The notes: generated from the sequence alone by a model not told the origin. Shown: positions 15,116-28,800, counted from the stretch's first letter. The stretch: 64,000 nucleotides of DNA from Elsinoe ampelina (GCA_010093995.1 ML992508.1:220506-284505); one strand, 5' to 3'. Numbers and translations: made by a program.

Positions 15116-16354
15116 TCACGTCTTGTTCGCTGGAGCCTGCTTTGGCTTTCTCCCACCTCCCTTGCCCTTTGTTGGCTTACTACTCTTCTCGTATAGCGGC
15201 TCCAGGCCAAAGGCGGCATCTGACAAGCGGATGAAGCTAGTCACCCCCTCATCCACCACTGCCAGGATGACCGACTTGTATCCGTGCTTCAGCTTGGCAT
15301 AGAGCTGCATGTTTGTTGGGGGAGGCTGGTATGGTTGTGTATCCACCAGTCCTGCGAGATCTGCTAGGCTAGGCAGTCCCGTCGATCGTGAGTCCATGAC
15401 TGCGATGCGAAAGTCTGGCGGTCCTGGTTTCGACTTCTTGTACACTGTGTTATTGGGCTTCCAGACGTTCCATGTGATCTGCAACTTCTGCTCTCGTGGT
15501 CTTTCCGAAGATTCACGTTGCACTGTAGGATTGTACCAACAAATCATTGCCAGTGACCGATAGATGTCAGGATATGACCTGAAGATCTTTTTGTCGGTAA
15601 GCGGACCCGTTGCCAGTCGTTCCTTGCTCGGCGCTGTCCACCACTGCTTCCAGGAGTCCGCATAGATACCTAGGCGAGTCCATGTTCCAGGTAATGGCGG
15701 GAATGTTTCTGGATTGAATGACTCCAGGCTTTGATTCCAAGTTGGCGCTCGATGAACAGAATATCCAGCCCGCTTCAAGTAGCTGTACACCGAATAACGC
15801 TCGTGATTGAGACCGTCATTGTGCTGTTCTGAGAGTCCAAGAAAAACAGCATGCGCTCCTTGCAGGCTCATAGGTAGTCCAAGGTCATCTGCATCTCCGT
15901 CCTGCGCTGGCCAGCGACAATCCACCGTACCTCGCTCGATCAGGTAGAGGATCTCTTCGGGAAGGAACCACATCCTGCTCGAATTTGGTTTAATGTCACC
16001 AAGCGGGTCATCTTTAGGCGAATGAGTCTTGCCCATGGATTTGAACAGCGTCGAGTGACCTCGCTCTATGTAGGCCATGTTGGATTCGGGATGGTAGATT
16101 GCAATGTCTTGTCGCTTTGGTTGATGAGTCCGCTGTATAGACAGTGCATCATGTACGGCTTGTCTGGCTGTATCTAGCTTGTTTGCTTGAGTCGAAGTCC
16201 CATGGCTCTCAAAGTCTTTTTCGCCTCGTTTCGGGATGGCGCCAGTCTTTGATTTTGAGACGGCGGCAAAGGCAGTCCAGTCGGGCACTTCTTCCTCCCC
16301 GTCTTCTTCCTCTGGCACATTGGTGTTTATTACGTCCTCGTCTGCGTCGGCCAT
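15116..16354 (-). CDS. SEN54: tRNA-splicing endonuclease subunit Sen54
   Basis: IPKRGEKDFE, WFLPEEILYLIERG, YSVYSYLKRAGYSV, KSKPGPPDFRIAV, LKHGYKSVILAVVDEG; the stop lies in GTGAGT, so a further small exon is possible. Confidence 0.92.
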   Translation of the reverse strand: MADADEDVINTNVPEEEDGEEEVPDWTAFAAVSKSKTGAIPKRGEKDFESHGTSTQANKLDTARQAVHDALSIQRTHQPKRQDIAIYHPESNMAYIERGHSTLFKSMGKTHSPKDDPLGDIKPNSSRMWFLPEEILYLIERGTVDCRWPAQDGDADDLGLPMSLQGAHAVFLGLSEQHNDGLNHERYSVYSYLKRAGYSVHRAPTWNQSLESFNPETFPPLPGTWTRLGIYADSWKQWWTAPSKERLATGPLTDKKIFRSYPDIYRSLAMICWYNPTVQRESSERPREQKLQITWNVWKPNNTVYKKSKPGPPDFRIAVMDSRSTGLPSLADLAGLVDTQPYQPPPTNMQLYAKLKHGYKSVILAVVDEGVTSFIRLSDAAFGLEPLYEKSSKPTKGKGGGRKPKQAPANKT

Positions 16355-19722: not shown

Positions 19723-22131
19723 TCAGCGCTTGGTCATCTTCAACAAAGGCTGTATCCTCTGCTTCCTGCTTAGTCCCACCCTATATATCGTCACGCCCTT
19801 CTTGATAGGGGAGTGCGGCTGCTTCTCCTTGCATGCTGCTGCCGTCCTTGCAGCCGCAATTGTTCCGTTCTCCTTTCCCGTGCCCACGTCGCTCATCTTC
19901 TGGACTTCTTCATCCCTATCCGCCTCTGCCTCTTTCGCGGCGTCCATCGAGGCGAACAAGTCCTCCTCTTCTTCCGCTGGTGCCACAGTCAATTTCTCCT
20001 GCTGAACATCTGGACTCTCATCCGTGACCTCCTCCTGCGTCTCTTGGACCTCTTGGACTTGGCTCTTCCTAGGACGACCTCTTCCTCTCTTGGCTGGTGT
20101 CGTCTTTGGTTGCTTCTTGGTCGCTTCTTGTGGTGGCTCCTCTTCGTCAGGAACAGGGACTGGCGCGTTCTGCATCACCACATCTTTCCGTCCGATCTCA
20201 ATCGGCTTCAGCTCGGGCTCGGGCTCAGGCGCAGGTTGCTTCCTAGGCCTCCCCCTCTTCTTTCTCGTTTCTTGTTGTTGCTTGAGGCTAGTAGGCTCAG
20301 ACATCTTGATATCGTCCTCTTCGTCTTGACCACGTAGACCCACGTGATCCTCAAAGATGGTTGTGTGACTCCTTCTGTTCTTCGTCCTGCGCAGTGAGGC
20401 AATAGAGGCAGGAGGTGGCATCGAATTCGGTGTAGGCGTGGGTGCCGACGCCTGAGAAGCCGCAGCAGGAGAGGCTGTAGATAGTATCGGAGGAGTCACA
20501 GTACCTTTGGCTGCAGGCGTGGTGCTTGGTCGCTCAACGACGGGCATGCCGACTTCTTGCCCCAGAACATTCGTCGACTTATCTTGACTAGGCGCCCCGG
20601 CAGCCATCGCATCTTCTTCTGTGTACTGTTCAGGAATGCTCTCTTTAACCCGGGACGGACTGCTTTGTGACTGTGAAGCTCTACGACCACTGTCCTTACG
20701 AGTCTTCTTCGACCCCTTAGCCTTAGGCTGTGTCGTAACTGCTGGTCCGACATCATTCATGGGTACGTCCTGCAGAACCTCATCCGTATGGTTCGCCGCC
20801 GTACTGGCTTTGGTACCGGACGAGTCTTCTTCTCTGGCTTCCTTCGCCCGGCGAGCAATCTCAGCTTCAATCTGCAGCTGCTCATCGGCATCATGGTTCA
20901 ATTGGCTGTCGGCGTTGCCGACAGCGCCCGCAGTCTTGGTCCGTTTGCTTTTCTGCTTTTTCGCTAGCTTCTCTGGTGGAACAGACCAGTCTGTTGGCGT
21001 GTACTCAATCGCAGCCGACCTGGACCGACTGGGCTTTGCTTTGTACTGCTCCAGTGGGACCGCTGCAGAAGTGTCGGTTTCCGTTGTCTCGCTGGGACGA
21101 GGAGTGGTAGACTCTTGGTAGTGTACGATAGACTCCACACTGATTTGTCGCGTCCTCGATCGCTGAGCTGGTGTCTTCTCAGGTGCAGGAATGCTAAGCT
21201 CATCGAGGCTGACTTGACTACTACTCATGTCTGTGCCGTGAGCAGGAGTGACCTGCGCTGAAGCTGTGCGTTGCGAAGCTTTTGCTGATTTGCTGCTCTT
21301 CGCCGATCGTGATGATTGCGTTCTCTTTTTCGAGCCAGTGGATGGAGTCTGCGTGTTCCTGATGGGTTCTGCAGACCACGGGATAGAGCCACTACTATTG
21401 CTGCTCACGTGCTCTTCGCGATGGGTCCCGTGTCCCTTGTCAACATCTCTACTGGCAACGATCGTGTCCTCCTCTTGCTCATACACACCAGGGACAGCAT
21501 TTCTCAATGCCTCCTCCACCATGAATTGCTGCTCGCCTGTCGCGAATTTGATAGTCGCATCGGGCATCTCTTGCTCACCATCGTCGCCCATATCTCCACT
21601 AGAGGGCAGCATGAGGACGTTCTCTCTTGCAGCTTGTGTAGCGAGGCTCTTAGCGCCCTCCAAAGCCTCCACAGGGTCCTCATTGTTCATCATGCCATCT
21701 TGATTGTAGGTCCCGTGGTAGGAAGCTTGAATATGTCCAATTGACGCGTCGCTGTGTCTCGTGCTCTGACTCCTAGTGCTCTCCTTGAATCTTTTCCTCG
21801 GGCTCTCAGCTATTTCTCCAGCTGTCTGCCTCCTCTTCTTGCTCTTCGCCTTGTCGGCTGCTCCATTGTAGCTGAAAGTCGACTCGATGTCGAATAGATC
21901 CGCGCCCGCCATACCGTAGGACATTTTGATCAGTGGCGCATTCGCGTCCTTTGCTTCGGTGATTTGGTCCAAATTGCAATTGAAGTGTGTGGTCGCGTCC
22001 GGCTGCGATAGCTGCGCTCCATGTCCTAAGAGGCTGTCTAGATCTTCGTCCAGGTGCACTCCAGACCCATTGACATCAAGAAAGAGCTCGTCGCTTGAAC
22101 CCTCTTCTGAATCGAAGACGAGCCGCGGCAT
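19723..22131 (-). CDS. AT-hook-containing, largely disordered nuclear protein
   Basis: KKRGRPRK and KRGRGRPRK AT hooks; C-terminal YRVGLSRKQRIQPLLK; start inferred at MPRLVFDSEE. Confidence 0.8.
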   Translation of the reverse strand: MPRLVFDSEEGSSDELFLDVNGSGVHLDEDLDSLLGHGAQLSQPDATTHFNCNLDQITEAKDANAPLIKMSYGMAGADLFDIESTFSYNGAADKAKSKKRRQTAGEIAESPRKRFKESTRSQSTRHSDASIGHIQASYHGTYNQDGMMNNEDPVEALEGAKSLATQAARENVLMLPSSGDMGDDGEQEMPDATIKFATGEQQFMVEEALRNAVPGVYEQEEDTIVASRDVDKGHGTHREEHVSSNSSGSIPWSAEPIRNTQTPSTGSKKRTQSSRSAKSSKSAKASQRTASAQVTPAHGTDMSSSQVSLDELSIPAPEKTPAQRSRTRQISVESIVHYQESTTPRPSETTETDTSAAVPLEQYKAKPSRSRSAAIEYTPTDWSVPPEKLAKKQKSKRTKTAGAVGNADSQLNHDADEQLQIEAEIARRAKEAREEDSSGTKASTAANHTDEVLQDVPMNDVGPAVTTQPKAKGSKKTRKDSGRRASQSQSSPSRVKESIPEQYTEEDAMAAGAPSQDKSTNVLGQEVGMPVVERPSTTPAAKGTVTPPILSTASPAAASQASAPTPTPNSMPPPASIASLRRTKNRRSHTTIFEDHVGLRGQDEEDDIKMSEPTSLKQQQETRKKRGRPRKQPAPEPEPELKPIEIGRKDVVMQNAPVPVPDEEEPPQEATKKQPKTTPAKRGRGRPRKSQVQEVQETQEEVTDESPDVQQEKLTVAPAEEEEDLFASMDAAKEAEADRDEEVQKMSDVGTGKENGTIAAARTAAACKEKQPHSPIKKGVTIYRVGLSRKQRIQPLLKMTKR

Positions 22132-22350
22132 TGCATCGCCGCTTCGGAGTGTGTGGAGTGATCGACAGGCAGGCGTGTTGAGTGTTTGCAACTTCGACGC
22201 GCGAAGTGGAAAATCGAGACGGAAAGTCACGTGAGCAATCTTCGCTGCCGTTCAGCAAACTGAAATGGAACGCTGGTCAATTGCCATGTTGTCCGCCTGC
22301 CTACTTGTGTATGTCAAGGTCTTCCTCGACAGTAGGTGCACAATTAAATG

Positions 22351-22451
22351 GTGCATTTTAGCGTCCTCCTCTCTCCTAAGTGTAATTAAGAGTCCTCCCG
22401 TCTCCTAGATGAGTCTCGGAGCTCTCCTCTCCCGGGTGCATTTATGAAGTC
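22351..22451 (+). repeat. Degenerate ~27-29 bp tandem repeats upstream of the tRNA
   Basis: gtgcattttagcgtcctcctctctcctaa / gtgtaattaagagtcctcccgtctcctag / atgagtctcggagctctcctctcccgg / gtgcatttatgaagtc. Confidence 0.5.
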
Positions 22452-22501
22452 ATCTTTGTATAGTTCGAATCATTGGCCTGGGCTTCCGAGCCGTAATTAA
22501 A

Positions 22502-22657
22502 GGAGTTGTAGCTCATCTGGGAGAGCGCCAGAGTAAGTCTTGCGCATCCAAAATACTAGATTCCGGCTGATCCCCCTATCGCTGAAGAAACACTTCGGTT
22601 ATACACATACAATGTATGGCAATCTGGAGGTAGAGTGTTCGATCCACTCCAACTTCA
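22502..22657 (+). tRNA. tRNA-Phe(GAA) gene with two interruptions: exons 22502-22532, 22582-22587, 22622-22657
   Basis: Acceptor GGAGTTG/CAACTTC+A73; D arm GCTC/GAGC with G18G19G20; anticodon stem CCAGA/TCTGG; loop CTGAAG|A; T arm GAGTG-TTCGATC-CACTC; TTTTT terminator at 22662-22666. The joined exons closely resemble the yeast tRNA-Phe core GAGAGCGCCAGACTGAAGATCTGGAGGT. Confidence 0.9.
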
Positions 22658-22661
22658 TGCG

Positions 22662-22666
22662 TTTTT
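22662..22666 (+). terminator. RNA polymerase III T-run terminator
   Basis: TTTTT 5 nt after the tRNA discriminator base. Confidence 0.7.
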
Positions 22667-22712
22667 GTTGCATTGCAATCAATTAGGATACATCGCGGGC
22701 ATTGCGAAATGA

Positions 22713-22778
22713 TACCTCTAGCTCACTGAGGCTGGGAGAGTGTGGTACCCCAGCTCACTGAGGTCGGGAGAGAGTGTG
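22713..22778 (+). repeat. Two ~33-bp imperfect direct repeats downstream of the tRNA
   Basis: tacctctagctcactgaggctgggagagtgtg / taccccagctcactgaggtcgggagagagtgtg. Confidence 0.75.
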
Positions 22779-23028
22779 ACTGAGGTATTCAGGTTCCGAG
22801 CAACCTTGAAACACGAGCCAAGCTACACACGAAGTAACGTTTGTGATGGGAAACGATCAAAGAAATGATGCACTTGACGAGGTTCATGAAGCTGATTGGC
22901 GAGACCAAGGTAAGAGAACACATGGAGTGCATCGTTTTTATCATCGACTTGATTCAATATGCATAGCGATCATTGCACGAAGTTGACATAGCGCAATGGT
23001 GAATTATTCATCATTGTACGTCAGTAGT

Positions 23029-25250
23029 GTCGTGGCAAAAATCCCCGCAAGTTGAACTCGCCGAATTCTCTCCATCTTTAGTAGATGTTATATGCTCGTC
23101 GAGGACACGAGAAATCCGGTAACAATACTGAGCAGTACATGAGTGTCGCCAGCAGAGTTATAAACACTTTATAAGTAAGGATTATTAGGACACATTATCC
23201 TGCCGGCATGTTACAGAGTCAACCTTTGTAGTCCCTATTATGTTAGTAATATAAGTTAAACACACCTAGGAGAGTCTGCATGATATCTAGTATATCTGTC
23301 TAGCATCTCTATAGAACTAGAAGGTAGCAATCAGGGTCTTTGCCAGCTTATAGTAACACTACACTTATTGCTCTTCGGTCGAAATTTTCGAAGGTATAGT
23401 TAACCTAATAGCTTTAATGCCTAAACCCTACAGCTCGAAGATTCTAAATTATCTCCTTAGACAAAAAGGCATCCTGTTAGAATACCTACATCGTAGGCTC
23501 CTTAAAATCTATAGAGATAACGGAGTACATGCTTAGGTTACTAGAAGAGTAAGCCTTACTTTATAGTAATACTATCTTAAAATGCTAAATTAGAAACTCT
23601 AGGCTCGTAGATGCTACATAATATAACAATCTTACTGTCGGCTATTTATACACAACTAAGGCTTACTTTTAGAAATCCTAGCGCATAGGCCTACTAAGCT
23701 ATACTAGCTTTACTACTTTTTGTATATAGACAATACATCTTTATAGGCTATGCTTAATTCTTATTGTATAAAGCTGTAATTAAGGTAGTAAATAGCTATA
23801 CTATTGAATTAAAGGTGTAAGTGCTTAATAGTTAGTGCTTTTACTATTACGTTGCTATAGCTAGTATACTCTATCTAGCATCTCCTCTACTAGCTTATCT
23901 ATCTAATTCTATAGTATATCCTTCTATTCTTCTTAAATAAAGCGTTTTAGCTCTTTATTAGTTGTTAGTGTACGTTGCTTAATATGCTACTTAACTCTCC
24001 GCTAGCAGTTCTTAATAATAGTTATATTAGGTAATTTAGTACAATTAGCGTAATATTAGAAGCTTAGTAGTAAGTCTTTATATAGCTTAACTAGATTATA
24101 GGTTAATTGAGTGCTATAAGCGCTATTATTGTCTTCTTCTAGTATAAAGGCTTCCTTCTTAAACTATACATTGTTCTAGTACTTCTTAATATAAGGGATA
24201 AAGATGCTATAAAGATAGGTAAACTAATTAAGGTTGCCGCTAATAGTAAGCACTAAGGGTTGCTTCTTATAGTAGTCGTGTTTATAACTCGCCTTGTCTT
24301 TATACCGGTGCTTATAGCTAGGCTATAAGTCGTTTAATAGGCGTAACTTAGCTTCCTCTATCTTAAGAATAGCCCCTAAAGGCTAAGGGTTAACATCGAC
24401 AAGGTCGGCCTCTAGTATAGCCTTTTGCTTGTTAATTGTCTTTAGTAGTAGCAAATTAGAGTAGAATACAAGCTCTAACTTAAAGCCGTAGCCGACTATC
24501 CCCTAGATATGTACTATTATCTTTATAGTCTTCTTTTTAAACTAGATCTTGTTTAGGTTGTTCCTCTAGCCTTAGCGGCGATAGATTATAGTAGTAGCTC
24601 TTAAGTTATAGTAAAAATAAGACTTATTAGTAAATCTAACGCTTTTCTAGAAGTCTAAGTCTTTATAGCGGTAGATTTTAGCCTACGCTTTATAAGCTGC
24701 TATATTCTTAGCCTTTAGCTAGCCCTTCTATTTAGCCTTAAACTTAAAGATACTATAGCCTTATATAGCTCTATATAGTGTCTAAGGGTTAACATCTAGA
24801 TAGAACAAGTCTACTAGCTACTAGTAAGTCTTTTTAGCGTTACTAAAGCTACTATCGACAAAGCGCTAGATATAATAGAGTAGACAGTTGTTAATAATAG
24901 AGGTTCTTCTAGGCCACTTAGATCTAGGCCTCTAAGCTAATCTAGTAAGTATCTACTATATAGAACGCTTAGGAACCTTTATTATATATAATATCTAGCT
25001 TATAGGGAATTTGGTGTATCTAGGTAGTAGTAGTGCTACTCTAAGGGCGTAACAGCTAGCGCGGATTAGAGTAGGCTACTTGTGCCCCTTAGTATATTTC
25101 TAATTAGCCTCCGGAGTTAGCGTGCGTAAATTGGAATAAGGTAATTCGGCCATGGCGAGTTCATTAGGAAAAAAATCAAAGCAATTGGAGCAAAATTAGT
25201 AGTGTTATAAAGGTGTGCAATTTGGTGGTGGAATCTTGGTGTGCCACGAC
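23029..25250 (-). mobile_element. RIP-inactivated Tc1/mariner-superfamily DNA transposon, ~2.2 kb
   Basis: Reversing G>A and C>T changes on the minus strand gives WKSVRFTDESHF (~24650-24615), VHIWGMVGYGFKSELVFY (~24515-24460), LEEDNDSAHGT (D at 24131-24133) and SPDMTIIENCW (E at 24011-24013). Inverted ends: GTCGTGGCA 23029-23037 / TGCCACGAC 25242-25250 followed by TA, plus an inner block TGAACTCGCC / GGCGAGTTCA. Confidence 0.88.
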
Positions 25251-25817
25251 TAAAAAAATTGAGCCTTGGACGTGTGGTTCGGCGTGTGTGTAATCGCATT
25301 ATGACAGGTTCCGCCCACAGCCTTCATACATGCATGGCAGCTGTACTGGCATTCTACTGACGAAGCGCTGAAGTACTCGCCATGCGACTTCGACACCTTG
25401 TCCTTGCTCAGCTTCTGCCTGATGGAGAGCCGCTTTGCAAGAGAATGGACAAAAAGGCAAATGCTAGACGGCAGTGTTGTAGTCGGATCAGAATGAGTGC
25501 AGCAAGTACTGTACCGATGATTGCGTCCCGCCCATAGGGATGCGACGAAGCTTCCTTAATAGTGCTAGCCTTTGCCAAGGTCTCCCCGTGGTCAAATGTC
25601 CACGTTCACGGGCAGAGGGACTTCAATTGCGTGAAAAGGCGGATTTGCGTTTTAGCCTGGGAACACAGTCATTCCACAACAAGGTAACAACGACAGATTG
25701 GGGTCGTTTTCGCGTCAAGGTCGTTGAGCCATTGTGACAGCACCTCTCGTCAAGCAGCAGAACCCCCACCTCACCATTTCCCCTCTGCCCTCCCACCTCT
25801 CGTCACCCTCCTCCTCA

Positions 25818-28800
25818 TCACCCCTCGACCGTCCCGTTAAGCATATACATACTCAACCTATTCGGTCCTCCACAATATTGACTCCCATTCCCACTACAAG
25901 TCATCCCACACCCAGCCGCCACCCCATCGCCCTCAACAAGCACACTCCCAACCTGCAGATCATTCCCGGCATAACACTCCCCACCATACTCTACCCCAAA
26001 CCACTTCCATCCCCCACTTACCACCGCGTCGTAGCACCAGTCCACGCTCCCCTTTCCTGCTGGCACAGGCGGGATATACCCCGTTAACGCACGGGAGTTG
26101 GTCGCTTCAGTGTAGCATCCTGCGTAGGAATAGGCGCCGATGGATGGGACGGCGCTGGGTCCGGCGGGCGTGGGAGGGAGCGCGACGGTCGAGTTGAGCT
26201 TGTACATGTTGAGTCTGTTGGGGCCGCCGCAGTATTCGGTTGCGTTGCCGCCGCAGAGCATGTTGCAGCCTGTGTCTGCTGGGGTGGCGCCAGGGACGAG
26301 GGCGGAGCCGGTCTGGATGGTGTTGCCGCCTGTGACAGACGGTTGGTCAGTTGACGAACTCGGATGAATGGACAGGATGGTGACTTACAATAGCATTCGT
26401 TGCTGTATTCGACGCCAAAGTATTGGTAGCCTGAGCACTTGGATTCACAGTACTCGACTGAGCCGCCTTCTTCGGGAGGAGCAATGTTGGCACCGGACAG
26501 GGCGCGGCCGTTGGTACCTTCGGAGTAGCAGCCGATATAATCGTACGGACCCGATGAGTTGGCCGTTACTGGTCCCCCGACTGGACCCGATGGGCCTCCT
26601 GGGCCACCAGTAGAATTGTAAGTCTGGTCAGTGATAGTGTACTTGGTGGTATCATAGTACACAGAGATATAGCCTGTATCCGCACCACCACCACAACTCT
26701 GCGATGCGTCGCCGGTACAAGCAAAGGTGCATTGTCGATCAGATTCTGCAGTGTAATAGAGGCCAGAGGGAAGCTTGTTACCCGCCCAGCATTCTTGTTG
26801 GTATTCTGTACCCACGAAGACCGAGTTGGCTGTCAGTCCAGCTGTCTGGCACTGTTGGTTCGTGTTGCCTGTCACATCTGCGTAAAGCTGGTTTGGCAGG
26901 AGTCGTCCACCAACGTTGTCCTTGTAGCAACCAAGATACTGGTATCTCGCAGTCCCGTTGGGGTACAATGGACCGATCTGCTTGGTGTGAATGGTTCCTC
27001 GCATCTCGACAACGTGAACGCCAAAATCAAGGTCATCCACGTTCAACGTCCATTCATTCGTGACGAGCTGATCCGGGAGGTTCGGGACTGATGGTTGAGG
27101 CTGGAAGACTACCACGCCATAGGCACACTCGCCGATGCCGATTGCTTGTGACTCGTGAAGATCGATGCCGTAGTTGAGAGCACGTATCGTGCCAAGAGGA
27201 GGCTTCGACTTGGTGACCGTCAAGACCGAGCCGCCTTCATTACAAATTCGGATCTGGCGCTGAGCAGTATCACCAGGAGCGACGACGCCGAAATCCATGA
27301 TCAGATTCGTCTCGGCCAGCCATCCACCTTCAGACGTCGAGATGGAGAAGTTGGCCCGCGGTGCGGTAGATGCAGAACCTTCCAAGATGATGAGCTTGCT
27401 ACCGCCATCCGACCACATGTTGAAGTACGACAAGTATGATCCTACCCCGGTAGTCGGGGTGAAGGTCGCTGGAATCTGCAGACTTTGTCCCGCTGTCAAC
27501 TTAGACCCGATCGGAGGCAAACTTGCTGTCGTGAAACCAGGACCAAGATCCCAGACGCCATTCGTCGAAGTGATATTAGTGAAGTCATCTGCTCCTCCGT
27601 CATCGTCGTCGTCACCAATTTGTGTCGAATAAGCGTATCCCAGAACTGTCAAGTCGCCCTGACCCAAGTTTGCCAATGTGAAAGACAGCTGTGCAGTCGG
27701 GTTCTCATCGCCTGGAATACCCAAGACGAGCCCGCCAAAATCTACAGTCTGTGGAGTGAGCTGCAAGAACGGCTTTGAAGATACCTGTGTACCGGTCAAG
27801 CTGACAGGAAAGTTGGTGGTGTAACCGGCCACGCCGTTGACCGTGGAAATAGTGAGAGCTGCACTCTTGATGCCCGGTGTGATATTGCCATAGCTAGCAT
27901 TGACGGCATTTGAGACGGTTGTATCTGTAAGATTCCAAATGACGGATATCGAAAAGCTTTGGCCTTTGGCGACTGCTCCCTTCGGAATCGTGGTAGTATC
28001 AATTTCGAAATGGAGATCGCTGACGGTCACACTGCTAATCTGATTGACGTTGATCAAGGCCGTGCAATTGACCTTTTGCGGCGTCGACTTGGATCCTAAA
28101 CCTACGGAACCGAATGAGACTGGAGATGAGCACTCCAATGGGAGATTTACGGGAGAGCCGAGGCAGTAGAGCACACCATTTGCATCAGTCGTGTACAGTC
28201 GGGTATCACCAAATGCGGGTCGCTGAAACTTGTTCGAACCACCAGTCTGCGGCAAATTGATCCTCTTCAAAGATCTATCTGCCTGCGGAATTGCATACCA
28301 CGCACGAAGCCCGGCATCAGGGTCGGTTAGCCACACTATCCCAGTCCCCGGCTGACCCTTGTATGAAGTCAAGGTCGGAGTGCCGGGACCAACTCGTCCG
28401 GCCGAGATCTCCTTTGTTGCTCCTGCGAAAGAGAATTGCGGTACTCCAGCGCCGGTGAAGCCAAGCTTGTAGACTGAAGTAGGATTTCCAACAGGAGTTG
28501 AGTAGATGTAGCCACCCTCGAGCGGATAGGAGCCCACGCCACCGAATACGGCTTGATTGGTCACAATGGTTTGCACAATCTTGTCGGTCTGGCCTGGTCC
28601 TTGTTTGTAGCCGCCGAGGTCGTTGCCGTTCATGAAGTAGATCTTGCCATTCTTTCCGGTAGTGATTGCGATTTGGGTCACGCCCGTCCCTCTGAACACT
28701 GTTGGGTCGAGCAAAGCAACGCCTCCTGATCCAAAATCTTGATCTCCTCCGTCCATGTTGATGTAATCAAAAGGTTGGAAGTAGTCGATCAAGCTGAGCT

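What the first reader, a model, noticed from the sequence alone, without database searches (positions are those of the whole stretch)
22566..22587. The tRNA insert ends in CG, and the first downstream AG is the anticodon itself
Seen: to restore C32-U33-GAA-G37 the insert must end ...CCCCCTATCG (22581), a non-AG 3' end 11 nt after the putative branch A. The first AG after the branch is A36-G37 (22586-22587), exactly the SEN 5' cut position, and using it (55-nt intron) would delete the anticodon. Inference, three alternatives: a GT-CG intron whose acceptor is fixed by tRNA folding (CTGAAG sequestered by pairing with CTTCGG of the second intron); a former spliceosomal intron now removed by endonuclease/ligase; or an AG>CG mutation that killed the gene. 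A single SEN-ruler cut of the whole precursor would instead give a loop GTAAGTA (anticodon AAG) on a Phe body.
Basis: partly seen in the sequence, partly recalled or inferred. Interest (0 to 1): 0.7.

Follow-up and report, generated by a model that had tools for sequence, protein, structure and literature searches.

The report
tRNA gene with an mRNA-style intron
A fungal phenylalanine tRNA gene carries, besides its normal tRNA intron, a second 49-base insert that looks like a messenger-RNA intron but ends in CG instead of AG, and public RNA data show it is cut out exactly there, which would make this tRNA depend on two unrelated splicing systems.

Summary
Window 22502-22657 (+) is a tRNA-Phe(GAA) gene split twice. 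A 49-nt insert (22533-22581) lies between positions 31 and 32; it starts GTAAGT, has CTGAT with its A 11 nt from the end, and ends CG. A 34-nt intron (22588-22621) lies at the usual 37/38 site. The first AG after the branch is A36-G37.

New evidence: contigs of three RNA-like public runs from three studies all skip exactly 22533-22581 ("GT..CG", no ambiguity). They keep the 37/38 intron and run on past the first T5. The DNA run keeps the insert. So the CG end is used and the 22587 acceptor was not seen.

The insert fails a bulge-helix-bulge test that the 37/38 intron passes. Its signals match the window's predicted mRNA introns and are very unlikely by chance. The competing AG is predicted to be buried in the anticodon-intron hairpin. 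A paralogue in the same genome also departs from the tRNA at 31/32.

Best reading (about 0.6): a spliceosomal-type intron removed before endonuclease splicing. Enzyme, polymerase and mature tRNA are not shown, and no orthologues could be reached. I found no published precedent.

The parts
22458..22466 (+). TATA-like element GTATAGTTC, about 20 nt before the first base of the X3 RNA contig and 36-44 nt before the tRNA
   Evidence: Sequence. The upstream loose end of the paralogous contig in X1 also carries TATAGTTC at a similar distance. A promoter role is inferred.
22483..22501 (+). 5' leader present in the RNA-like contig of X3
   Evidence: X3 record 4 aligns from 22483 and has 7 further unaligned letters. 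Contigs cannot define a true 5' end.
22502..22532 (+). tRNA-Phe 5' exon, positions 1-31 (acceptor strand, D arm, 5' strand of the anticodon stem CCAGA)
   Evidence: cloverleaf and ARAGORN Phe(gaa) after both removals.
22533..22581 (+). 49-nt insert at 31/32, a spliceosomal-type intron with a CG end: GTAAGT 22533-22538, GCTGATC 22566-22572 with A at 22570, C-rich tract, CG 22580-22581
   Evidence: Skipped exactly ('skips 49, GT..CG, both 0') in X3, X4 and X7 contigs and kept in DNA run X1. Signals. No BHB. Unique in the window.
22582..22587 (+). 6-nt middle exon CTGAAG (C32, U33, anticodon GAA, G37)
   Evidence: Predicted paired with CTTCGG 22593-22598 of the second intron.
22588..22621 (+). 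Canonical 34-nt tRNA intron at 37/38, retained in the RNA contigs
   Evidence: No joint at this place in any run. In the insert-less form it gives central helix 3/4 including C32:G(-3), and outer helix 5/5, which is the anticodon stem.
22622..22657 (+). tRNA-Phe 3' exon, positions 38-73 (A38, TCTGG, variable loop, T arm GAGTG/TTCGATC/CACTC, acceptor strand CAACTTC, discriminator A)
22662..22666 (+). First T5 run, 5 nt after the tRNA; the expected Pol III terminator, read through in the molecules seen
   Evidence: T-run list. The contigs continue past it.
22658..22940 (+). 3' trailer covered by the RNA-like contigs (to 22853 in X3, 22920 in X7, 22940 in X4)
   Evidence: table 8. No Rfam family at E up to 10 apart from two chance-level hits.
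22935..22939 (+). Second T5 run; the X4 contig ends one base after it
   Evidence: This is only a weak hint of Pol III termination.

Best explanation
The locus is a live nuclear tRNA-Phe(GAA) gene of a fungus with two introns of different kinds. The 49-nt insert at 31/32 is an mRNA-type (U2-spliceosomal-type) intron. It has a perfect GUAAGU donor, a CUGAU branch site 11 nt from its end and the typical length of this genome's introns, but a CG acceptor instead of AG.

It is removed first, precisely at A31|G...CG|C32, while the transcript still has its leader, its trailer and its 37/38 intron. The next AG (A36-G37) is not used, probably because CUGAAG is locked in the classical anticodon-intron helix that starts right at the 3' junction. 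The second step therefore falls at the distance-appropriate site, where the pre-tRNA fold also places C32 next to A31.

Removing the insert makes the anticodon stem and the anticodon-intron helix contiguous. That creates the normal substrate for the tRNA splicing endonuclease and ligase, which then take out the 34-nt intron.

Shown: the gene anatomy, and the exact 49-nt joint in RNA-like contigs with the second intron retained. Inferred: that the spliceosome does it, why CG is chosen, that Pol III makes the transcript, and that a mature charged tRNA results.
For: (1): one joint only, 22532->22582, 'skips 49, GT..CG', both = 0. It is in 1 contig each of X3 (depth 150.9, side 50), X4 (8.3, side 24) and X7 (6.88, side 21), which come from three studies. 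There are 0 such contigs in DNA run X1, which keeps the insert. The flanks match the window with 0 other letters over 272-359 nt of unique trailer, so this is the same locus and not a paralogue.

(2) These runs behave as RNA. Coverage comes in short islands (contigs of 329, 383 and 360 nt, with zero depth at 22270-22473), and X3's neighbouring contig stops at 22250, beside the start of ORF 19723-22230.

(3) The 34-nt intron is kept in all three contigs. The endonuclease-type structure scores central 3/4 and outer 5/5 only once the insert is out, whereas the insert itself scores 1/4 and 0/5.

(4) Intron signals: GTAAGT plus CTRAY 11 nt from the end, at 49 nt. Only 2 of 127,902 window 49-mers have both. 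ORF-joining predicted introns of the window are 47-141 nt (six of nine at 47-71), with GTAAGT/GTATGT-type donors, CTGAC/CTGAT, and 6-24 nt from branch to end.

(5): A22586/G22587 have P(unpaired) 0.09/0.06, 0.00/0.01 and 0.05/0.03 in three contexts. The first five bases of GTAAGT are 0.97-1.0 unpaired in the two full contexts.

(6): a second X1 contig (31,974 nt) matches 22497-22538, that is the 5' exon plus the first 6 insert bases, with 6 mismatches, and then continues with unrelated sequence instead of the anticodon loop. A paralogue therefore also has an insert at 31/32 whose interior has diverged.

(7) No other X1 contig matched the insert, and it is unique in the window, so it is not a fresh copy of a repeat.

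(8): removing both introns gives a 73-nt cloverleaf that default ARAGORN calls Phe(gaa). There is no T run of 3 or more inside the precursor, and the only T runs of 4 or more in 22440-23100 are at 22662-66 and 22935-39.
Against: A CG acceptor is almost unheard of for U2-type introns, and the A at -2 normally takes part in 3' site recognition (recalled knowledge).

The 'RNA' label of X3 and X4 is the tool's guess, and X7 is unlabelled. No RNA holder is on record as RNA.

DNA and RNA of one and the same strain were not compared, so an insert-less allele in the RNA strains is not formally excluded.

Contigs show neither strand, lariat, true ends nor rare forms, so an unspliced or 55-nt-skipped minority could exist.

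All molecules seen carry a 200-280-nt trailer past the first T5. They may be read-through by-products rather than productive precursors.

No mature tRNA from this locus was seen.

G22581 is predicted paired at the base of the hairpin (P unpaired 0.06-0.11), which is not obviously favourable for catalysis.

No orthologue could be examined. The positions of the 6 mismatches in the paralogue are unknown, so conservation of its GTAAGT is only partly shown.
Confidence: 0.6

Rival explanations
1. The insert is removed at the RNA level by an endonuclease plus tRNA ligase (the tRNA splicing endonuclease acting off-register, or another nuclease). Its GTAAGT and CTGAT would then be relics of a spliceosomal past, or coincidence.
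For: The exact, AG-independent joint is what a structure-guided nuclease would give. The organism encodes the endonuclease: ORF 15116-16354(-) matches the Sen54 N-terminal family, E 6.4e-22. Ectopic tRNA introns of the Guillardia nucleomorph often lack a defined BHB (passage in PMC3978253), so a missing BHB is not a full exclusion.
Against: There is no BHB: central helix 1/4, outer 0/5, inner 1/4, with or without the second intron. The site is 6 nt from the ruler position. The same contigs keep the genuine endonuclease-type intron, so that enzyme had not yet acted on these molecules. The intron signals are far beyond chance. The junctions do not resemble the Ire1-type stem-loop sites described in PMC12530127; the 5' junction is A|G.
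Confidence: 0.15
2. Presence/absence polymorphism in DNA. The sequenced strain carries a 49-bp insertion in this gene, the strains used for the RNA runs do not, and nothing is spliced.
For: RNA and DNA runs come from different samples and studies. Only one DNA sample was laid, and it may be the source of the window.
Against: Three studies would all have to use insert-less strains that are otherwise identical over 272-359 nt of low-GC intergenic trailer (0 other letters). The insert has donor, branch and length of a real intron. No donor copy exists elsewhere in X1 or the window. A paralogue is interrupted at the same position by unrelated sequence.
Confidence: 0.08
3. The locus is a decaying or exapted tRNA gene. 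The splice is real, but the RNA seen is a non-coding read-through or Pol II transcript, and no functional tRNA-Phe is made from it.
For: Every molecule seen has a long trailer and an unremoved tRNA intron. No mature tRNA evidence exists. A to B box spacing is stretched by 83 nt.
Against: All tRNA features are intact after removal of both inserts: cloverleaf, Phe(gaa), T5 five bases downstream. Short mature tRNAs are not expected in such assemblies, so their absence says nothing. A paralogue keeps the same architecture.
Confidence: 0.12

Closest known systems
mRNA-type (spliceosomal) intron in the Pol III-transcribed U6 snRNA gene of Schizosaccharomyces pombe; also introns in U1, U2, U5 snRNA genes of Rhodotorula and in ascomycete rRNA genes (passages of the review PMC5855946)
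   Same: A spliceosomal-type intron inside a structural, non-coding RNA gene of a fungus that is not a Pol II mRNA gene. In U6 the transcript is made by Pol III and still spliced by the spliceosome.
   Different: Here the host is a tRNA, which that review does not list among such genes. The acceptor is CG, not AG. A second, endonuclease-type intron lies 6 nt downstream. U6 introns are explained by proximity to the spliceosome's active site, which does not apply to a tRNA.
Ectopic and multiple introns in nuclear tRNA genes of Cyanidioschyzon merolae and the Guillardia theta nucleomorph (abstract of PMC3728597 in the listing; passages of PMC3978253)
   Same: A eukaryotic nuclear tRNA gene with more than one intron, one of them outside 37/38, and ordered removal with the 37/38 intron last.
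   Different: Those introns are processed through BHB-type motifs by the tRNA endonuclease. This insert has no BHB and instead carries donor and branch signals of mRNA introns.
Canonical eukaryotic tRNA intron between N37 and N38 (review PMC10275265, passage)
   Same: The second, 34-nt intron of this gene fits: position 37/38, C32:G(-3) pair, anticodon paired with the intron.
   Different: The 49-nt insert is at 31/32 and does not fit that definition.
   Same: The same kind of claim in an unrelated lineage.
   Different: It is an unchecked AI note, and I did not see its sequence or evidence.

Membership tests
U2-type spliceosomal intron | 5' splice site GT, fungal consensus GTRNGT | tested here: met
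   GTAAGT at 22533-22538. 20 of 127,902 window 49-mers start this way.
U2-type spliceosomal intron | Branch site CTRAY a short distance upstream of the 3' end | tested here: met
   CTGAT, with its A 11 nt from the end. The window's ORF-joining predicted introns have CTGAC/CTGAT 6-24 nt from the end.
U2-type spliceosomal intron | Length within the host genome's intron range | tested here: met
   49 nt, against 47-141 nt for 9 predicted introns (8 donor sites) of the window, six of them 47-71 nt. These are predictions, not RNA-verified.
U2-type spliceosomal intron | 3' terminal dinucleotide AG (YAG) | tested here: not met
   It ends TCG. The CG is in the window and in the X1 contig, and the RNA joint uses it.
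U2-type spliceosomal intron | Precise removal from RNA | tested here: met
   Joint 22532|22582 in contigs of 3 of 3 RNA-like runs, absent from the DNA run. Caveats: the RNA label is a guess, and strain identity is not shown.
U2-type spliceosomal intron | Lariat intermediate and dependence on snRNPs | not testable with these tools
   Contigs cannot show lariats, and no raw reads were served.
tRNA-endonuclease (BHB / ruler) intron | Two 3-nt bulges separated by a 4-bp helix around the two cut sites | tested here: not met
   Insert: central 1/4, outer 0/5, inner 1/4. Control, the 37/38 intron in the insert-less form: central 3/4, outer 5/5. The definition comes from a passage of PMC3978253; the placement of the cut after the second bulge base is my derivation.
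tRNA-endonuclease (BHB / ruler) intron | Position between N37 and N38 in eukaryotes | tested here: not met
   The insert lies between 31 and 32. The rule is quoted from PMC10275265.
Ire1/HAC1-XBP1-type intron | Both cut sites in 7-nt loops of short stem-loops with a conserved G before the cut (loops described as CAGCAGN in PMC12530127) | tested here: not met
   By inspection only: the 5' junction is CCAGA|GTAAGT (A before the cut) and the 3' junction is TATCG|CTGAAG. No such loops appear in the folds.
Nuclear tRNA-Phe(GAA) gene | Cloverleaf with GAA anticodon in a 7-nt loop after intron removal | tested here: met
   73 nt, cloverleaf at -22.5 kcal/mol, ARAGORN default call Phe(gaa). G at position 20 and A at 73 are present; their role as Phe identity elements is recalled, not tested.
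Nuclear tRNA-Phe(GAA) gene | Pol III signals: internal A and B boxes, T-run terminator just downstream | tested here: inconclusive
   TAGCTCATCTGG and GTTCGATCC are present, with T5 at 22662-66. However, the boxes are 83 nt further apart than in the mature sequence, and the RNAs seen read through the T5.
mRNA-type introns in non-coding RNA genes (U6-like cases) | Spliceosomal intron in a structural RNA gene, shown to be spliced by the spliceosome | tested here: inconclusive
   Intron signals and an RNA joint are present. Spliceosome dependence is untested.

The most novel reading that the evidence does not exclude
[quoted passage not shown] First the spliceosome removes an intron at 31/32, using an AG-independent acceptor whose position is set by the pre-tRNA fold (anticodon-intron helix and anticodon stem) rather than by sequence. 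Only then can the tRNA endonuclease recognise and remove the 37/38 intron, leaving a 6-nt anticodon micro-exon between them.
Probability: 0.4. Interest if true: 0.9.

Novelty: new variant of a known kind. Interest (0 to 1): 0.82.

Why it matters
Current reviews treat the intron classes of eukaryotic nuclei as separate: spliceosomal introns in Pol II transcripts, and tRNA introns at 37/38 removed by the endonuclease (passages of PMC12530127, and PMC10275265).

A tRNA that needs the spliceosome would break that separation. It would add tRNA to the short list of structural RNAs carrying mRNA-type introns. It would also tie the supply of an essential tRNA to splicing capacity.

The CG acceptor is a natural experiment on how the second step of splicing finds its site. 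Here RNA structure and distance from the branch, not the AG, seem to decide.

Practically, standard tRNA finders miss such genes. ARAGORN in default mode found none, with introns allowed it miscalled the gene Ala(ggc), and Rfam found nothing. Fungal tRNA gene sets may therefore be incomplete.

Tried and rejected
- **Whole genome:** none is held, so no census of tRNA-Phe genes was possible.
- **Earlier findings:** lookups by place, sequence and a long word list gave nothing for this genome.
- **Sequencing runs:** no RNA holder is listed as RNA on record. Parts of the stretch without cover in the RNA-like runs (e.g. 22270-22473) are recorded here only.
- **tRNA and RNA-family finders:** default ARAGORN gave 0 tRNAs. 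ARAGORN with introns gave 'Ala(ggc)' with one 83-nt intron, or a 34-nt intron at 34/35 on the insert-less form. I rejected both as artefacts of free intron placement: base pair 3:70 is A:T, and the 37/38 rule gives GAA. Six other ARAGORN hits at 90% threshold have poor stems and were rejected. A B-box/A-box scan found no further tRNA gene. Rfam at gathering threshold gave 0; at E up to 10 on 22300-23300 it gave two chance-level hits.
- **Orthologue search:** a metagenome scan for the D-arm/anticodon-stem motif followed by GT gave 71 loci. 69 are bacterial-type tRNA-Ala(GGC) genes without an insert (two of these loci are cut short), L030 is an uninterrupted tRNA-Phe with G32, and L013 is cut off by its contig end. 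A stricter pattern found 0 in genome contigs and 0 in viral contigs, which hold prokaryotes and viruses. No orthologue was obtained.
- **Window-wide intron motif count:** uninformative, 53 observed against 67 +/- 11 in Markov shuffles.
- **First BHB script:** it had an index error and was replaced. The first 'mature' slice was off by one base and was redone.
- **Other readings considered and rejected:** an opposite-strand intron would read CG...AC. A U12-type intron needs a different donor. An RT template-switch artefact is unlikely, with no microhomology, the joint being the only form in three assemblies, and depth 150.9 in X3.
- **Repeats and promoter scans around the gene:** nothing that bears on the insert.
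- **Literature:** seven answered searches gave no paper describing a spliceosomal intron in a nuclear tRNA gene. The library lacks most subscription journals, and I judged most hits from listings only.

Full report
**What is there**

Window 22502-22657 (+) is a tRNA gene in three pieces:
- The 5' exon, 22502-22532, holds positions 1-31 and ends with the anticodon-stem strand CCAGA.
- A 49-nt insert follows at 22533-22581.
- The six bases CTGAAG at 22582-22587 are C32, U33, the anticodon GAA and G37.
- A 34-nt intron lies at 22588-22621, beginning AAACACTTCGG.
- The 3' exon, 22622-22657, runs from A38 to the discriminator A.
- A T5 run lies at 22662-22666.

With both interruptions removed the 73 nt fold into a cloverleaf (-22.5 kcal/mol), and ARAGORN in default mode calls tRNA-Phe(gaa). 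From memory, not from a call, the D arm and anticodon arm closely resemble yeast tRNA-Phe, whose 37/38 intron also pairs with the anticodon.

Standard tools miss the gene. ARAGORN default gave 0 genes. Rfam at gathering threshold gave 0. ARAGORN with introns forced a single 83-nt intron and an 'Ala(ggc)' call, which I reject because pair 3:70 is A:T and the intron placement is arbitrary.

The surrounding genes look fungal: WSC domain, DUF3405 and a Sen54-like ORF, with GC about 52% and short predicted introns.

**Check of the observation**

- The insert ends TATCG, with the CG at 22580-22581.
- Its only CTRAY match is CTGAT, with the A at 22570, 11 nt from the end.
- The first AG after that A is 22586-22587, which is A36-G37.
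- Using that AG would remove 55 nt and the anticodon.
- The boundaries cannot slide ('both = 0').
- A ruler-only cut would leave an 'aag' anticodon.

The intron-like signals are not chance. 20 of 127,902 49-mers of the window start with GTAAGT. 4.1% have CTRAY with its A 6-20 nt from the end. Only 2 have both, one of them this insert.

**The decisive new evidence**

The run search listed ten public runs holding part of 22000-23200. I laid four of them on 22100-23100 at 80% likeness.

The DNA run X1 may be the source of the window. It covers the whole stretch with 0 differences and keeps the insert.

The three other runs are X3 and X4 (labelled 'RNA?') and X7 (unlabelled, 'organism B'), from three different studies. 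Each has one contig that joins 22532 directly to 22582. The tool reports this as 'skips 49, ends GT..CG, both 0'. It is the only joint in the table.

The same contigs run without any gap through the 34-nt intron and on past the T5 at 22662-66, to 22853 (X3), 22920 (X7) and 22940 (X4). They show 0 other letters, so they come from this locus and not from a paralogue. X3's contig starts at 22483, 19 nt before the tRNA.

I take these runs to be RNA for two reasons. Their coverage is a set of short islands: contigs of 329-383 nt, with nothing between 22270 and 22473. X3's neighbouring 2836-nt contig ends at 22250, right next to the start of the ORF 19723-22230 on the other strand. This is an inference, since the tool marks the label as a guess.

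The CG end is used. The 22587 acceptor was not seen. The second intron is still present when the first is gone.

**Which machinery**

I tested the endonuclease option with an explicit bulge-helix-bulge register: two 3-nt bulges, a 4-bp central helix, and cuts after the second bulge base. The definition comes from PMC3978253.

| Substrate | Central helix | Outer helix | Inner helix |
|---|---|---|---|
| 49-nt insert (with or without the second intron) | 1/4 | 0/5 | 1/4 |
| 34-nt intron, insert-less RNA form | 3/4, including C32:G(-3) | 5/5 (the anticodon stem) | 1/4 |

About 15% of random site pairs reach 3/4 in the central helix. The normal endonuclease substrate therefore exists only after the insert has been taken out. 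That agrees with the order seen in the contigs.

The junctions also do not look like Ire1-type stem-loop sites. This is by inspection, with the description taken from PMC12530127.

In favour of the spliceosome, the insert has the donor, branch, branch-to-end distance and length of this genome's own introns. Nine ORF-joining predictions (eight donor sites) in the window are 47-141 nt, six of them 47-71 nt, with CTGAC/CTGAT 6-24 nt from the end. Those predictions were required to end in YAG, so their YAG is by construction.

The one failed criterion is the acceptor dinucleotide.

**Why CG and not the next AG**

In three folding contexts, A22586 and G22587 are predicted almost always paired (P unpaired 0.00-0.09). 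They sit in the hairpin CTGAAG/CTTCGG that begins at G22581. The first five bases of the donor are 0.97-1.0 unpaired in the two full-length contexts.

The CG lies 11 nt from the branch A, within the range of the window's predicted introns. In the folded pre-tRNA the anticodon stem and the anticodon-intron helix would stack. C32 would then be held next to A31, with the insert looped out between them.

I therefore think position and structure, not the AG, select the acceptor. This step is inference.

**Age and family**

In X1 a second contig of 31,974 nt matches 22497-22538 with 6 mismatches. That stretch is five leader bases, the whole 5' exon and the first six insert bases. The contig then continues with unrelated sequence instead of CTGAAG.

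So a paralogous tRNA gene is interrupted at the same place, with a diverged interior. Its upstream flank shares the TATAGTTC motif.

No other X1 contig matched the insert, and the insert is unique in the window. This argues against a recent insertion or a repeat.

**Polymerase**

The gene has A- and B-box-like sequences, no run of three or more T inside the precursor, and T5 runs at 22662-66 and 22935-39 only. X4's contig ends at 22940, one base after the second T5.

This fits Pol III read-through molecules being the ones long enough to enter the libraries. It is only a weak hint, and Pol II is not excluded.

**Rivals**

(a) Endonuclease plus ligase, confidence 0.15. It is not excluded, because some nucleomorph ectopic introns lack a BHB. 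It leaves the intron signals and the retained 37/38 intron unexplained.

(b) A DNA polymorphism, with insert-less strains behind all three RNA studies, confidence 0.08. It is unlikely given identical flanks, the intron signals, the lack of a donor copy and the paralogue.

(c) A spliced but non-productive transcript of a decaying gene, confidence 0.12. It cannot be excluded, because no mature tRNA was seen.

**Comparison with what is known**

Reviews state that eukaryotic tRNA introns lie between N37 and N38 (PMC10275265). They also state that spliceosomal, tRNA and XBP1 introns are unrelated classes, the first being in Pol II transcripts (PMC12530127).

Known exceptions are of two kinds:
- BHB-type ectopic introns in Cyanidioschyzon and nucleomorph tRNA genes.
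- mRNA-type introns in U6 (Pol III), U1, U2 and U5 snRNA genes and in rRNA genes of fungi (PMC5855946).

The present case works like the second kind but sits in a tRNA, has a non-AG acceptor, and is combined with a classical tRNA intron.

Seven answered literature searches found no report of a spliceosomal intron in a nuclear tRNA gene. The library lacks most subscription journals, and most hits were seen only as listings. One earlier, unchecked note of this scan (e1-4091646) claims an mRNA-type-looking intron in an algal tRNA-Ala gene. I did not test it.

**What remains open**

No orthologue could be reached. The metagenome scan gave 71 loci: 69 bacterial-type tRNA-Ala, one uninterrupted tRNA-Phe, and one truncated eukaryote-like locus. 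The prokaryote and virus collections gave 0. No whole genome is held.

The following are all untested:
- the terminal dinucleotide in relatives;
- the number of tRNA-Phe genes;
- spliceosome dependence;
- the lariat;
- the polymerase;
- the mature tRNA.

**Verdict**

The best explanation is a spliceosomal-type GT-CG intron in a tRNA-Phe gene, removed before endonuclease splicing, with confidence 0.6. Interest is high.

Noticed in passing
window 15116-16354 (-): A 412-aa ORF matches the N-terminal domain family of tRNA-splicing endonuclease subunit Sen54 (PF12928, E 6.4e-22). It lies about 6 kb from the doubly split tRNA gene. The proximity is probably coincidence, but it shows the organism has the endonuclease.
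   Followed up: partly
window 22351-22407 and 22720-22776: There are two pairs of tandem direct repeats. One pair is C/T-rich (28 nt, 79% alike), about 100-150 nt upstream of the tRNA. The other is G/A-rich (25 nt, 88% alike) and sits inside the transcribed trailer. Their function is unknown, and they flank the gene on both sides.
   Followed up: no
window 22854-22874 / 22926-22946: A 21-nt inverted repeat (81% complementary) has its second arm across the second T5 run, where the X4 contig ends. It could form a hairpin at the end of the read-through transcript.
   Followed up: no
window 22582-22587: Between the two introns lies a 6-nt micro-exon that consists of C32, U33, the anticodon and G37. 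It would be among the shortest internal exons anywhere.
   Followed up: partly
L013:389-527 (+): A metagenome contig has a eukaryote-like tRNA-Phe 5' half up to position 31, followed by GTGCAAG... and no anticodon loop in the remaining 103 nt. It is followed by what looks like the T arm of another tRNA on the other strand, and then the contig ends. It may be another interrupted or split tRNA-Phe gene, perhaps of an alga. ARAGORN finds nothing.
   Followed up: partly
L001-L071 (metagenome loci): 69 of 71 hits to the motif are bacterial-type tRNA-Ala(GGC) genes. Their D arm and anticodon stem are identical to those of this fungal tRNA-Phe over 22 nt.
   Followed up: no
window 22000-26000: The tRNA sits in a 3.8-kb gene-poor stretch of about 42% GC between two long ORFs, against about 52% GC for the window as a whole.
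   Followed up: no
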